Shown here piece by piece: positions 1-3,000 of a stretch of 6,325 nt of DNA. Each line of letters begins with the position of its first letter. The first letter of the stretch is position 1. Source of the DNA: a virus. Taxonomy: Duplodnaviria > Heunggongvirae > Uroviricota > Caudoviricetes. Position numbers: made by a program. The stretch lies in IMG/VR virus record IMGVR_UViG_2531839233_000012, one strand, 5' to 3'.

Positions 1-3000
1 AACCCTGCCGGAGCAGGGTCAGAATGTGAATTACAATGTTGGTTTAAACACAATGATGAAAACTGTAGCAGTCAGACCGCTATCCTGAACACCATGAAGC
101 CATCCTCATCATCCGGCATTCGCTCAAAGCCCAGTCGTTTTCCCAGCCGGATAAATCCCCGCCTTGCCGTATGGAACTCAGCCCAGCGTCCGCCAGCCAG
201 ATGGGTTAATGTCTTCACCTCCGGCAGGTAACGCTCAACGCTGTTACTCCCCGTACACACGCCCAGCAACACCAGAACATAAGGGATACCATCAGCACTG
301 AGCACAGAACGCAGCACCAAAAAGCCATCAGGTGCCTCAAAACAAAACGCCTGCTTTTTAAGGCAGGCGTCTTTAACTTCATTCATAAATTCAGGGTTGC
401 GGGAATTTCTCACAACACGCTGCATATACCAGAGAATTTTATCGTTCATTCTCTCACCTGAAACGGGTGCCATATCGGCTGAACCTCAGCAACCAGTTGA
501 CGGGGACTCTCGTCCCCGTCGCGGTTTTCCTACTGCTTACACTGTAAGAACGCCGCAAACTCCGCTCCCCACAAATTCAGCCGGAACTCACACAGTGAAC
601 CGTGCAACATCCAGATGGTGAAGATAACCGTCATGCAAATTGTGACGGTGATAAGCGATTTTTGCGACATAGCGCTTGACTCCTTTTACAGAGAGGCGCT
701 AACCTTCTACTTGCTTAAGGTACGAAGTGTTAGGGCCTCGGGTTAACGTTAAGTTGACTCGGGGCCTTTCCACATCAGGCCTTCAGGTTCACCCTCCAGC
801 CATCAGCCGAAAGGCACCCACGCATAATTTACGGTTTTTGCCCTGTACGGGCAATAAAAAACCCGCCATCACAGCGGGTAGTAAACGGTTACCGGATACA
901 GGTCAGAATTTCAGGCCAATGCCAGCAGTAACGCCACTCGTGCGCCAGTCGCCAGAGCCGGAACCTTCGTAAGCCACATCCAGTGTAACACTCTCATTCA
1001 GGTTAAACTGTGCACCTGCAGCCCACGCAAGGGAGGTTTTTTTCGTGCTGTTGCTTTCAGAAAATCCGCCACTACTGTTAATATTGTCCTTAATTTTCAG
1101 GTCAGCGCTAACTTTAGCAACGCCCATCCCTGCCATCGCATATAAACTCATGTACTGATTAACCCGCCATGAAGGCCCCGCTAACAGACTCCAGTAATTC
1201 GCCCTGATATCCGTTCTGGCAGAAGCTGCCGGATTCTTAATCTTCCTGGTATGATCGGCTGACTGCACATCAATAAATGTCTGTGAGTTAGTGAGAGAAC
1301 GCGTCCATGTAAAAGAGGTGATAACGCCAAAATCATCCGTTATCTCGTAGCGATACCTGATATTAATGCCCTGTGGATTTTTATCCTTGCCTTCATATCC
1401 ACTGACCCGACCATCTGTATATTCGCCCAATGAAGAAAAGTAGTTTCTGTTGACGAAATGACTGAAAGTCTCCCTGTTATGAGCAGTCGCATCCTTTACA
1501 AAATCCTTCAGTCCCGGAAACTGAAAGTGCGCATACCCCAGAGAAATTGTATGCTCTCCTTCTGCTGCATGTGCAGATAAATTTACACAGGCAATCCCGG
1601 AGATTGCACACACAACCAGTGTTGCTATACTCTTCATTTAAGATATCCTGTATTCAGATAACACGCTAAACTTTTTAATAATACATCTTTTTAGACATTT
1701 TAAATGAATATTAAAGACTCGCTTCAACTAATCATATACTGATGTATTAATAACCAGGACCTTATCTATATACGGCTTTCGAATATCCCATGTTGCACCA
1801 CCGGAATAATGCTCACAGGAATATATTTTATTTCCTGTAGCACCAGTGGATGTGGTATAAATCGGTCGATCATAAGGAGTTCTTTTCCAGTTATAATACC
1901 CGACCAGTGCAGGCATGATTGCGCATGGATATCCAAGGTCCTTTTCAAATTTGATATCAACAGGTATTAACTTCGCGTCAAGCAGCATCATTTCGCCATG
2001 ATAAATCATCTCACCGTCCGGGTTATACATGGCGATACCATACTCAGAAGGTGGAGTAACCATATTCGCGAAAGCATAAACCGTCGTAACACCAGGGTTC
2101 GTTCCCCTGACAATTACATGAAGCCTTAGTGCATGATATCCATCAATCTGTTCATGCGTGTACATGACATCGGCCTTCTTCTCTGTTCTGATAAAGAAAA
2201 AACAACTTTTGCCTGACGGGATTGATGTTTTAAAAAAAGACTTTTCAGTCGCCGGTATGGTGCCTTTGTTGATCAGACACTGCGGCGTAAAACCTGGACT
2301 TATCCATACGCTGCCATCCGGCTTCATAATGCTCAAACCGTACATAACACTTATCCCCAGAATGTATAAATATAAGATCCCATACCCTGCTCAAGATTCG
2401 ACCACGTCACCGTATTGTCATTAATGGTTATCTTCGGTACTTTCCGATCCGCAAATACATTATTCCAGGGAAATAAACAACATACAGCCTGCAATGATTT
2501 CCCGTCGGGTTTATTAGTGTACGTCTTTGAGCCAGACTCCGCTGTAAATCTGTCCAGGAAAAATACTGGAGTCAGCACGCCCGTAACATTAACGTTATTT
2601 CTGTTATAAATGGCAAAACCGTATTCCAATACTCACCTCCTGATCAGCGTAATCTGCCTATGCGAACAGCCAGTCGTCCATTCTGGTCATAAACCTCAAT
2701 TTTATCATTGCGGATCACCAGTCCTACATTCTGATTAGAGTAACGAATTGTCAGTTGCCCTTGTGACGTAACACTGAAAAGGCCTCCAATATTCAGGTTA
2801 CCCTGAGAATCAACCTGAAAGTTTCCGTTCTGAATAACGGCACTCCGGATAACTGGCGAAGTGATACTTACCCCGGCTTTTACCTCATCCGCCACAACCT
2901 TCCGCGACACCAGTGTTTCAATCACCGCGTCATAAATCATCGCTTTCGGGATCACTACCTTGCCACCTGATACCGCAAACGGATAGGCTGTGTTATCCGG

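What the first reader, a model, noticed from the sequence alone, without database searches (positions are those of the whole stretch)
474..902. hok locus lacks a recognisable mok frame; antitoxin RNA not placed
Canonical hok/sok loci couple hok translation to an overlapping upstream mok frame and are repressed by an antisense Sok RNA. I translated both alternative frames upstream of the hok ATG and found stops with no ATG/GTG/TTG start, so no mok-like frame overlaps the hok start. What can be seen: a strong SD directly on hok; a candidate minus-strand promoter (TTGCCC-17-TAAATT, 854..826) abutting the lom terminator; a plus-strand candidate promoter TTGACT-18-TAACCT (676..705) antisense to the leader; and a perfect 9-bp hairpin (499..520) just 3' of the stop. 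Either this is a decayed, non-functional copy, or it is regulated differently from the plasmid R1 paradigm.
Basis: partly seen in the sequence, partly recalled or inferred. Interest (0 to 1): 0.55.

Follow-up and report, generated by a model that had tools for sequence, protein, structure and literature searches.

The report
Mok-less hok/sok cassette in phage 933W
This is an intact toxin/antisense-RNA "hok/sok" addiction cassette sitting next to the lom gene of the Shiga-toxin phage 933W/Sp5; it keeps the family's RNA folding switch but, like most of its relatives, lacks the overlapping helper reading frame (mok) through which the textbook version is controlled.

Summary
The locus is not decayed.

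- **Cassette:** it is a roughly 355-nt unit (about 819..465), 100% identical in phage 933W and VT2-Sakai. Relatives sit after lom, after ogr of P2-like prophages, and in an island.
- **Selection on Hok:** the ORF is intact in all 64 variants aligned (dN/dS about 0.21). A preprint's test set contains exactly this peptide and does not list it among its three non-toxic homologs.
- **RNA switch:** the R1-type elements are all present: tac/fbi end pairing, tac/ucb, the ucb/GAGG hairpin with the same C·A mismatch, the sokT hairpin, and the 3' hairpin.
- **Antitoxin:** I place Sok at about 713..775 on the plus strand.
- **mok:** its absence is a family trait. 73 of 74 variants have no start codon after GAGG, and 43 of 74 have no frame overlapping hok.

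I favour direct gating of the hok SD by mutually exclusive helices that Sok binding resets. The main rival is a short non-overlapping leader ORF (GTG 773..TAG 699). No transcript or translation data were available, so both mechanisms are inferred.

The parts
861..879 (-). lom intrinsic terminator hairpin. Its T-run (860..851) overlaps the hok -35 hexamer.
   Evidence: Terminator scan; sequence.
826..854 (-). Candidate hok promoter: -35 TTGCCC 854..849, 17-nt spacer, -10 TAAATT 831..826. The inferred +1 is G819.
   Evidence: ATTGC and TA.ATT are invariant in six loci from different genomic contexts. The Rfam hok-leader model starts at 819. The site is below the consensus-scan threshold. No transcript data.
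803..819 (-). tac element: the mRNA 5' end, GGGUGCC..UCGGCUGA.
   Evidence: It pairs with fbi in the full-length fold and with ucb in the 3'-truncated fold. It is invariant in 64 variants.
749..775 (-). Conserved AUG (775..773, after GAAGG 784..780) opening an 8-codon uORF, MWKGPEST, with stop 751..749.
   Evidence: The ATGTG motif is present in 74 of 74 variants collected with an AUG-independent pattern. The ORF end is highly variable across the family.
699..773 (-). 24-codon leader ORF from GUG 773..771 to UAG 701..699. It ends 2 nt before the dcb/anti-SD and 28 nt before the hok AUG. Candidate displaced mok analogue.
   Evidence: Its start is buried in the tac/ucb stem.
761..772 (-). ucb (UGGAAAGGCCCC). 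It pairs with tac in the truncated form and with the GAGGCC region in the closed form.
   Evidence: 12 pairs, 100% paired, all invariant.
736..739 (-). GAGG, positional homologue of the R1 mok SD. No start codon follows it here.
   Evidence: CM alignment. The C·A mismatch in the ucb/GAGG stem is kept in 63 of 64 variants, as R1 C74/A106 (PMC9841398). 73 of 74 variants have no ATG/GTG/TTG 4-13 nt downstream.
693..739 (-). sokT-type hairpin, GAGGC-C-CUAAC...GUUAG-C-GCCUC, with a variable top and a YUNR-type loop. Target of the Sok 5' tail.
   Evidence: Truncated-form fold; 82% of cells paired. In the full-length form its top pairs with the 3' UTR, with 4 compensatory pairs (helix 6).
690..697 (-). 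dcb / anti-SD (GCCUCUCU). It pairs either with GAGGC or with the hok SD.
680..685 (-). hok Shine-Dalgarno AAGGAG, 9 nt before the AUG.
   Evidence: Sequence. P(unpaired) of GGAG is 0.01 in the full-length form, 0.31 in the truncated form, and 0.02 in the truncated form with the Sok target blocked.
530..670 (-). hok CDS: 46 aa, MSQKSLITVTICMTVIFTIWMLHGSLCEFRLNLWGAEFAAFLQCKQ, plus stop.
   Evidence: Pfam PF01848 E=4e-8; PHROG 251 E=2.8e-24; annotated Hok/Gef family protein WP_000078907.1; identical to peptide 72_1589 in the preprint's tested set; dN/dS 0.21.
499..520 (-). 3' hairpin (9 bp). Presumed 3' end protector of the processed, active mRNA.
   Evidence: 100% paired, with 4 compensatory pairs across 64 variants (helix 17). 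Positional equivalent of the last stem-loop of R1 Tr-hok.
465..482 (-). fbi element (UCAGCCGAUAUGGCACCC), which pairs with tac. Homology with cassette relatives ends just after it.
   Evidence: Helices 1 and 2 are 99% and 86% paired, with G-C/G-U and U-A/U-G changes on the fbi side. Alignments.
676..705 (+). Candidate Sok promoter: -35 TTGACT 676..681, 18-nt spacer, -10 TAACCT 700..705.
   Evidence: TAACCT is invariant. The -35 is TTGnnT/C with a 17- or 18-nt spacer in 64 of 64 variants. Same position relative to dcb as TTGCGC-17-TATCCT in the R1-type locus. Below the consensus-scan threshold.
713..775 (+). Predicted Sok antisense RNA: a 14-nt single-stranded 5' tail plus a 16-bp hairpin (732..768), followed by UUUCC.
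   Evidence: Fold is -31.3 kcal/mol (z -6.4) on the plus strand against -17.2 (z -2.6) on the minus strand. The Sok-sense strand is more stable in 64 of 64 variants. The ends of annotated K-12 sokC map to about 713 and about 775 through the RF01794 alignments. No transcript data.

Best explanation

**What is shown**
- A minus-strand RNA of about 355 nt (819 to about 465) carries every hok-family folding element.
- A strand-asymmetric hairpin with conserved promoter-like hexamers places a cis-antisense Sok of about 60 nt at roughly 713..775 (+).
- There is no R1-type mok, and this is a trait of the whole cassette family.

**What is inferred: a relay of mutually exclusive helices that gates hok translation directly**
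1. In the full-length RNA, tac (819..803) pairs with fbi (482..465) and ucb pairs with GAGGCC. The 3' UTR masks the sokT top. The segment AGCGC-CUCU (dcb/anti-SD) clamps the hok SD and the bases next to the AUG.
2. 3' trimming back to the hairpin at 520..499 removes fbi. tac then takes ucb, the freed GAGGC pairs with GCCUC to form the sokT hairpin, and this pulls the anti-SD off the hok SD part of the time.
3. Sok binds the sokT loop and 5' arm and zips through GAGGC. The GCCUCUCU segment is released and re-clamps the SD. The duplex is presumably cut by RNase III.

On this reading the former mok SD survives as an anti-anti-SD rather than as a ribosome-binding site.
For: **Identity and integrity**
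- Pfam and PHROG hits.
- 100% identity to 933W, VT2-Sakai and O157 genomes.
- The same module occurs in three genomic contexts.
- Hok is intact in 64 of 64 variants, with dN/dS 0.21.
- The exact peptide is in a tested set in which only three other homologs were non-toxic.

**Architecture**
- The RF01794 leader model hits 819..657 with E=2.4e-6.
- The full-length fold shows tac/fbi pairing with z=-6.9. The truncated fold shows tac/ucb plus the GAGGC/GCCUC hairpin.
- 90.4% of cells pair against about 40% for slid controls, with 21 pairs changed on both sides. This includes the sokT-top/3'-UTR helix and the 3' hairpin.
- The C·A mismatch matches R1 C74/A106.

**Sok:**

**No mok:**

**Relay**
- P(unpaired) of the hok SD is 0.01, then 0.31, then 0.02 (full-length, truncated, truncated with Sok target blocked). 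The AUG goes 0.24, 0.56, 0.22.
- The direction is the same for the family means: 0.01, 0.10, 0.01.
- In an R1-type control, hok SD and AUG accessibility do not change between the three states (0.49 and 0.10).
- 15 of 74 variants, including a subgroup with an AUG-UGA start-stop, have no leader ORF reaching the anti-SD, yet keep hok.
Against: - No transcript ends, Sok RNA or Hok translation were observed. Everything about expression is inferred.
- In most P2-type relatives the SD stays largely paired in the truncated form (P(unpaired) 0.00-0.15), so the relay alone may not suffice there.
- The thermodynamic model did not reproduce the published truncated-form structure for the R1-type control, which limits trust in it.
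- Both promoters fall below a simple consensus threshold.
- tac/ucb pairs are invariant, so they carry no covariation evidence.
- The ATGTG motif is conserved in 74 of 74 variants, and 59 of 74 have an ORF from it reaching the anti-SD or beyond. This fits the leader-ORF rival.
- No intrinsic terminator follows fbi, so the full-length 3' end is unknown.
Confidence: 0.45

Rival explanations
1. Displaced, non-overlapping mok analogue. Ribosomes start at the conserved AUGUG (AUG 775 or GUG 773, SD-like GAAGG at 784..780). In this copy the GUG frame (24 codons) runs through the sokT hairpin and stops at UAG 701..699, 2 nt before the anti-SD. The terminating ribosome unmasks the hok SD, or reinitiates 28 nt downstream. 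Sok (about 713..775) covers the start and the first 20 codons and so blocks it, as Sok blocks mok in R1.
For: - ATGTG is conserved in 74 of 74 variants found with an AUG-independent pattern.
- 59 of 74 variants (56 of 64 in the aligned set) have an AUG- or GUG-initiated frame that reaches within 12 nt of the anti-SD or overlaps hok. The frame without a start does so in 6 of 64.
- Stop codons per frame are 65 and 78 for the two start-bearing frames against 146 for the third.
- The 1-nt deletion specific to the 933W lineage moves the same downstream frame from the AUG to the GUG.
- The peptides are not conserved. This is as expected if translation rather than product matters, as for mok. In R1, mok translation is needed only up to the hok SD.
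Against: - The start codon and codons 2-5 lie inside stable, 100% conserved helices in both conformers: tac/ucb in the truncated form and ucb/GAGG in the full-length form.
- ORF ends scatter from 6 to 29 codons. 15 of 74 variants stop early in both frames, and one subgroup has AUG-UGA.
- The enrichment is not clearly above chance. Only about 45 nt vary. The no-start frame is closed by UAAs inside structurally constrained motifs (GUUUAAC, CCCUAAC). The variants are also phylogenetically non-independent.
- ATGTGG may be conserved for RNA structure alone.
Confidence: 0.3
2. Regulatory relic. The toxin ORF and RNA structure persist, but without mok the hok message is never translated. The cassette is then a silent passenger, or is kept only for the Sok RNA or the structured RNA.
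For: - In R1, mok start-codon mutations abolish Hok toxicity.
- This copy has no overlapping frame.
- The K-12 chromosomal hok loci are described as inactive.
- The SD remains mostly paired in the truncated form in many relatives.
Against: - Purifying selection on the peptide: dN/dS 0.21, 64 of 64 intact, across different prophage types and three species. This is hard to explain if Hok is never made.
- The leader has many 1-2 nt indels, while the CDS has only in-frame ones.
- The switch elements and the Sok hairpin asymmetry are all maintained.
Confidence: 0.12
3. Not antisense-regulated. The plus-strand hexamers are not a promoter, and the hairpin at 732..768 matters only on the hok strand. 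hok would then be controlled solely by mRNA folding and processing, or by read-through from lom.
For: - TAACCT matches only 3 of 6 consensus positions, and the scan called no promoter.
- There is only a 3-U tract after the hairpin.
- The -10 overlaps a structurally constrained element (GGUUAG), which could explain its invariance.
Against: - The hairpin is much more stable on the plus strand in 64 of 64 variants, through G·U pairs where the hok strand has C·A. The R1-type locus and its known Sok show the same asymmetry.
- The hexamers sit at the R1-homologous position, and their spacing is kept at 17-18 nt despite indels.
- Positional match to annotated sokC.
- The most variable segment of the module is exactly the predicted Sok 5' tail and its target.
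Confidence: 0.08

Closest known systems
hok/mok/sok (parB) of plasmid R1 and R1-type IncF plasmids
   Same: - Hok/Gef peptide.
- mRNA 5'/3' end pairing (tac/fbi) and the alternative tac/ucb stem.
- ucb/GAGG hairpin with the same C·A weak spot.
- GAGGC/GCCUC (SD/dcb) sokT hairpin.
- 3' hairpin, then a spacer, then fbi.
- Sok promoter placed just 5' of dcb on the opposite strand.
- Sok built as a 5' single-stranded tail plus a hairpin stabilised by G·U pairs.
- Identical hok SD, AAGGAG-N9-AUG.

   Different: - No mok. There is no start codon after GAGG and no frame overlapping hok.
- The leader is about 25 nt shorter (hok AUG at +150 against +174).
- Hok is 46 aa rather than 52.
- The Rfam leader model scores 35.6 bits against 87 for the R1-type locus.
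- The anti-SD that clamps the hok SD is contiguous with dcb, so predicted hok SD accessibility follows the leader switch. In the R1-type control it does not.
hokC/mokC/sokC (gef) of E. coli K-12
   Same: - The same leader model applies.
- The annotated 59-nt SokC maps onto window positions of about 713..775.
- The Sok 5' end lies 43 nt from the hok AUG here and 49 nt in hokC.

   Different: hokC has an annotated 69-codon mokC whose start lies under the SokC 5' tail. It scores 118 bits on RF01794. The window has GUA/CUU at the corresponding place and no such frame.
hokW/sokW of the same phage (Sp5), PMC8621323
   Same: - Same prophage and the same TA family.
- Shown experimentally to be a type I TA whose Sok falls and Hok rises on prophage induction, which helps lysis and phage release. 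That is a plausible role for this second cassette too.
   Different: - A different locus and peptide: HokW is 51 aa, starts MKQQKAM and is HokD-like. The hokW primer sequences encode a peptide different from the Hok in this window.
- The paper does not mention the lom-adjacent cassette.
- Nothing experimental exists for this one apart from peptide toxicity.
aapA3/IsoA3 of Helicobacter pylori (type I TA with direct SD sequestration), as summarised in PMC9841398
   Same: This is a works-like comparison for the favoured mechanism. The toxin's own SD is hidden by successive mRNA structures, 3' processing activates the message, and the antisense RNA acts on the processed form without a leader ORF (conclusions).
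   Different: The sequence and toxin family are unrelated. The resemblance is one of logic only and was not tested here.

Membership tests
[quoted passage not shown] | Small hydrophobic Hok/Gef-family toxin ORF | tested here: met
   Pfam PF01848 33.2 bits (cut-off 22), E=4e-8. PHROG 251 E=2.8e-24. RefSeq names it 'Hok/Gef family protein'.
[quoted passage not shown] | The peptide is toxic when expressed | not testable with these tools
   From the literature only. The identical peptide 72_1589 is in Table S2 of bioRxiv 10.1101/2025.08.07.668861. The text says 42 of 45 tested homologs were toxic and names three other sequences as the non-toxic ones.
[quoted passage not shown] | Long-range pairing of the mRNA 5' end (tac) with the 3' end (fbi) | tested here: met
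   Full-length MFE pairs 819..813 with 471..465 and 810..803 with 482..475, with z=-6.9. These helices are 99% and 86% paired in 64 variants, with one-sided G-C/G-U and U-A/U-G changes.
[quoted passage not shown] | Alternative tac/ucb stem in the 3'-processed mRNA, and a ucb/SD-region hairpin in the closed form | tested here: met
   Truncated fold. 12 tac/ucb pairs are 100% paired but invariant. The ucb/GAGG hairpin keeps the C·A mismatch in 63 of 64 variants and shows compensatory inner-stem changes.
[quoted passage not shown] | cis-encoded antisense Sok RNA complementary to the leader, with a 5' single-stranded tail and a stem-loop | tested here: inconclusive
   The computational evidence is consistent: conserved hexamers, a strand-asymmetric hairpin in 64 of 64 variants, and a positional match to sokC. 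No transcript was observed, and the promoter is weak by consensus.
[quoted passage not shown] | mok reading frame that starts within the Sok target, downstream of GAGG, and overlaps the hok start | tested here: not met
   No ATG/GTG/TTG frame overlaps the hok ATG in the window. 73 of 74 family variants have no start 4-13 nt after GAGG, and 43 of 74 have no overlapping frame at all. Controls with mok: the R1-type locus and K-12 mokC.
Rfam RF01794 ('sok'; in fact the hok mRNA leader, sense strand) | Score at or above the gathering threshold of 59 bits | tested here: not met
   35.6 bits, E=2.4e-6, full-length match to model positions 1-157 at 819..657 (-). No hit at the gathering threshold. A P2-type relative scores 42.8, the R1-type locus 87.2, and hokC 118.3.

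The most novel reading that the evidence does not exclude
A widespread prophage-borne branch of hok/sok (Hok cluster 72) has dispensed with mok. The former mok Shine-Dalgarno (GAGG) is kept only as a structural anti-anti-SD. Sok therefore controls hok translation purely through an RNA helix relay: Sok captures GAGGC, GCCUCUCU is freed, and the hok SD is clamped. No coupled leader translation is involved. This would be a second, mechanistically distinct mode of antisense control within the paradigm type I TA family, and it sits in the prototypical Shiga-toxin phage.
Probability: 0.35. Interest if true: 0.6.

Novelty: new variant of a known kind. Interest (0 to 1): 0.45.

Why it matters
hok/sok is the textbook case of antisense control acting indirectly through a coupled leader frame. 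Reviews and recent work treat mok as an integral, required part of the system. The latest large survey of Hok explicitly left mok and Sok unanalysed because they are hard to call.

A branch found in about a third of complete E. coli genomes (1750 of 5426) keeps the entire folding switch but not mok. This offers a natural experiment on which parts of the paradigm are essential, with concrete mutations to test.

It also shows that phage 933W/Sp5 carries a second hok cassette. It is unannotated in the 933W record and not mentioned in the hokW paper. It should be considered when interpreting hokW deletion phenotypes (lysis timing, phage release) in Stx2 lysogens.

Tried and rejected
1. **Is this hokW/sokW?** No. 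The hokW primers encode MKQQKAM...DYESEK, a different peptide.
2. **Rfam at the gathering threshold** found nothing. Only the E-value mode showed the sub-threshold leader hit. The other sub-threshold hits (sX5, Trp_leader and others) merely sit on the lom terminator and were dismissed.
4. **The 17-mer scan of genome contigs** gave almost only chance matches. Salmonella, E. albertii and a probably contaminated Vagococcus contig were the only real ones.
5. **Non-canonical starts** (CTG/ATT/ATC/ATA) for a mok-like frame: none lies upstream of the hok ATG in the two open stretches.
6. **An in-frame N-terminal extension like mokC**: excluded by a TAA five codons upstream.
7. **UUG/GUG in the sokT loop as a mok start**: present in 11 of 64 relatives but about 16 nt from GAGG, and absent in the window.
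8. **K-12 hokA as a comparison leader**: unusable because IS150 cuts it 32 nt upstream of hokA.
9. **A simple chance model for the leader ORF**: judged inconclusive because of the small variable region, structurally fixed UAAs and related sequences.
10. **An intrinsic terminator after fbi**: none was found. The next minus-strand terminator-like site is at 365..348, inside the downstream ORF.
11. **Literature searches** for 933W/hok/lom, or for any description of mok-less hok loci, found nothing. Subscription-only papers (Pedersen & Gerdes 1999; Steif & Meyer 2012) and T1TAdb could not be checked.
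Full report
**1. What the window is**

Bases 400..950 are 100% identical to many E. coli O157:H7 and other STEC chromosomes. Bases 460..860 are 100% identical to phage 933W (AF125520, 45470..45870) and VT2-Sakai.

The locus lies between lom (903..1637, minus strand; Ail/Lom) and the ORF called L0129 in 933W. The original 933W record does not annotate hok. RefSeq calls it "Hok/Gef family protein" WP_000078907.1.

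It is not hokW/sokW, the hok locus of this phage that has been studied. The hokW primers encode a different 51-aa peptide (MKQQKAM...). That paper does not mention a second cassette.

**2. Checking the observation**

- hok ATG 670 to TAG 532..530 (46 aa; Pfam HOK_GEF E=4e-8).
- SD AAGGAG 685..680.
- Minus-strand TTGCCC-17-TAAATT at 854..826, abutting the lom terminator at 879..861.
- Plus-strand TTGACT-18-TAACCT at 676..705.
- Perfect 9-bp hairpin at 499..520.

On the minus strand the two alternative frames are open across the hok ATG only from 698 and from 714. Neither stretch contains any start codon, canonical or rare, upstream of 670. The hok frame has a TAA five codons upstream.

- ATG 775: 8 codons.
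- GTG 773: 24 codons, with TAG at 701..699.

**3. A mobile cassette, not a remnant**

A distant BLAST of 480..860 finds matches in 1750 of 5426 complete E. coli genomes. In most, homology runs from about 839 to about 489.

The same module sits after lom in Stx phages, after ogr at the end of P2-like prophages, and in an O157 island. It also occurs in Salmonella enterica and E. albertii.

In an alignment of 64 distinct variants the leader and 3' UTR are more conserved than the coding sequence. The Hok ORF is intact in all 64 variants:

- Lengths are 46 aa (62 variants), 47 aa (1) and 48 aa (1), with 18 distinct peptides.
- Indels in the CDS are all in frame.
- Median dN/dS is 0.21, and every pair is below 1.

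The leader, by contrast, carries many 1-2 nt indels. The identical peptide (72_1589, a "high-abundance cluster") is in the toxicity test set of Escalera-Maurer et al. That paper names three other sequences as the only non-toxic ones among 45. "Decayed copy" is therefore not supported.

**4. The hok-family RNA switch is all there**

Rfam RF01794 is named "sok" but actually models the hok mRNA leader on the sense strand. On K-12 it hits the hokC strand, while the annotated sokC is on the other strand. It matches 819..657 (-) over its full length at 35.6 bits, E=2.4e-6. That is below the gathering score of 59. For comparison, the R1-type locus scores 87 and hokC scores 118.

Folding 819..460 gives -155.4 kcal/mol, z=-6.9. 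In this full-length fold:

- The 5' end (GGGUGCC, UCGGCUGA) pairs with the 3' end (UCAGCCGA, GGCACCC; 482..465).
- ucb pairs with the GAGGCC region.
- The sokT top pairs with the 3' UTR.
- The hok SD is clamped by CUCU inside an AGCGC/GCGCU stem.

Removing the 3' end down to the hairpin (819..496) changes the fold. tac/ucb now pairs, and GAGGC/GCCUC closes a sokT-type hairpin.

Across the 64 variants, the full-length structure pairs in 90.4% of cells, against 37-42% for slid controls. 21 pairs show changes on both sides. Compensatory changes concentrate in three places:

- The 3' hairpin (4 pairs).
- The sokT-top/3'-UTR helix (4 pairs). This is the interaction that, in R1, competes with Sok for the target.
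- The inner stem of the ucb hairpin.

The ucb/GAGG stem keeps a C·A mismatch in 63 of 64 variants. This is the same weak spot as C74/A106 in R1, where closing it (A106G) kills toxicity.

The tac/ucb pairs are invariant, so they are consistent with the structure but carry no covariation evidence.

**5. Placing the antitoxin**

On the plus strand, TAACCT (700..705) is invariant. A TTGnnT/C hexamer lies 17 or 18 nt upstream in all 64 variants. Relative to dcb, this is the same position as TTGCGC-17-TATCCT in the R1-type locus.

A start near G713 gives an RNA with a 14-nt single-stranded tail and a 16-bp hairpin (732..768). The fold is -31.3 kcal/mol, z=-6.4.

- The same segment on the hok strand reaches only -17.2 kcal/mol (z=-2.6), because G·U pairs there become C·A mismatches.
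- The asymmetry holds in 64 of 64 variants and in the R1-type locus.
- Through the RF01794 alignments, the ends of annotated K-12 sokC (59 nt) map to about 713 and about 775.

I therefore place Sok at about 713..775 (+). Both promoters fall below a simple consensus threshold, and no transcript data were available.

**6. mok is missing from the whole family**

In R1 the mok AUG lies 8 nt after GAGG, under the Sok 5' tail. At the aligned position the window has CGUACC, and its relatives have CUA, CAA or UUA.

I collected 74 distinct modules with a pattern that does not include the upstream AUG:

- 73 have no ATG/GTG/TTG 4-13 nt after GAGG.
- 43 have no frame of any kind overlapping the hok start.

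A strong SD on hok is not a difference from R1, which has the same AAGGAG-N9-AUG.

**7. How hok could be translated: the favoured mechanism (inferred)**

The 3' arm of the sokT hairpin (GUUAG-C-GCCUC) and the clamp on the hok SD (AGCGC...CUCU) share nucleotides, so the two structures exclude each other.

Partition-function folding of the window copy gives the following accessibilities:

| State | P(unpaired), SD GGAG | P(unpaired), AUG |
|---|---|---|
| Full length | 0.01 | 0.24 |
| 3'-truncated | 0.31 | 0.56 |
| Truncated, Sok target blocked | 0.02 | 0.22 |

The direction is the same across the family, with SD means of 0.01, 0.10 and 0.01. The largest opening (0.2-0.46) occurs in the lom-type subgroup, which also lacks overlapping frames.

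In an R1-type control, hok SD and AUG accessibility are identical in the three states (0.49 and 0.10). That fits R1's dependence on mok translation. On this reading GAGG survives as an anti-anti-SD, and Sok acts by capturing it.

Three caveats apply:

- The SD stays mostly paired in many P2-type relatives.
- The energy model did not reproduce the published truncated-form structure of R1.
- Nothing has been measured.

**8. The main rival: a short displaced leader ORF**

ATGTG at 775..771 is conserved in 74 of 74 variants and is preceded by GAAGG.

- In 59 of 74 variants, an AUG- or GUG-initiated frame runs to within 12 nt of the anti-SD or beyond. In the aligned set the count is 56 of 64, against 6 of 64 for the frame without a start.
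- That third frame also carries about twice as many stops.
- In the 933W lineage a 1-nt deletion truncates the AUG frame after 8 codons. The GUG then picks up the same downstream frame, which ends at UAG 701..699, 2 nt before the anti-SD.

This fits the R1 finding that mok need only be translated up to the hok SD.

Against it:

- The start and the first codons are buried in conserved helices in both conformers.
- ORF ends scatter widely. 15 of 74 variants stop early in both frames, and one subgroup has AUG-UGA.
- The apparent enrichment is confounded by structurally fixed UAAs, a small variable region and related sequences.

I rate it at 0.3.

**9. Comparison and novelty**

The locus works like, and descends from, hok/sok. 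It fails one defining feature of the paradigm (mok) and the Rfam threshold.

The peptide cluster is already catalogued, and its toxicity has been tested. The most recent survey explicitly did not analyse mok or Sok. I found no paper describing mok-less hok cassettes or this 933W locus. Subscription-only literature and T1TAdb could not be checked.

I file it as a new variant of a known kind, of moderate interest. Its main value is that it yields clean, testable predictions about how antisense control works without the coupled leader frame. It also flags a second hok cassette in the prototypical Stx2 phage.

Noticed in passing
window 447..473 (-): The annotated start of the downstream ORF (L0129-like, ATG 473..471) lies inside the fbi element. 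The PHROG 610 match begins at residue 9, so the real start is probably ATG 449..447 (MNDKIL...). If hok transcripts read through, tac/fbi pairing would sit just upstream of that gene.
   Followed up: partly
window 347..370 (both strands): A perfect 10-bp hairpin with T-runs on both sides looks like a bidirectional terminator, yet it lies inside the conserved L0129-like ORF. It is the first minus-strand terminator-like site downstream of hok.
   Followed up: no
window ~705..727 (A2 columns 95-118): The top of the sokT hairpin, which is the predicted Sok 5' tail and its target, is the most variable stretch of the whole cassette, while its flanks are invariant. CAAGU is fixed in the loop and a YUNR-type motif is always present. 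This may reflect diversification of Sok/hok specificity among co-resident copies. The preprint reports up to 18 hok homologs per E. coli chromosome, the maximum being in an O157:H7 strain.
   Followed up: partly
L192, L194, L196, L199, L201, L203, L206 (viral contigs): In a sister subgroup the conserved AUG is followed directly by UGA (GGAUGUGAAAAGGCCCC, a start-stop). The tac element is one C shorter, and the Hok peptide differs (MSQKPLKTTVICIT...).
   Followed up: partly
L023 4318..5400 (IMGVR_UViG_3300021279_000032): Two hok cassettes of this family lie 722 bp apart on one viral contig. They have different leaders but the same Hok peptide.
   Followed up: no
L169 5802..6162 (contig titled Vagococcus sp. 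WN89Y): A P2-type cassette encoding a Hok peptide identical to the E. coli P2-type one appears in a genome labelled as a Gram-positive Vagococcus. This is probably contamination or mis-binning.
   Followed up: no
Rfam RF01794, seen on L213 402..554 (-) and window 657..819 (-): The Rfam family named 'sok antitoxin' is modelled on the hok mRNA sense strand, from +1 to the hok AUG. On K-12 it hits the hokC/mokC strand, while the annotated sokC is on the opposite strand. Strand calls made from this family will therefore place 'Sok' on the wrong strand.
   Followed up: yes
window 498..521 (+): Read on the plus strand, the hok 3' hairpin is followed by CGGTTTTCC and scores as terminator-like. No plus-strand transcript that it could terminate is evident.
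   Followed up: no
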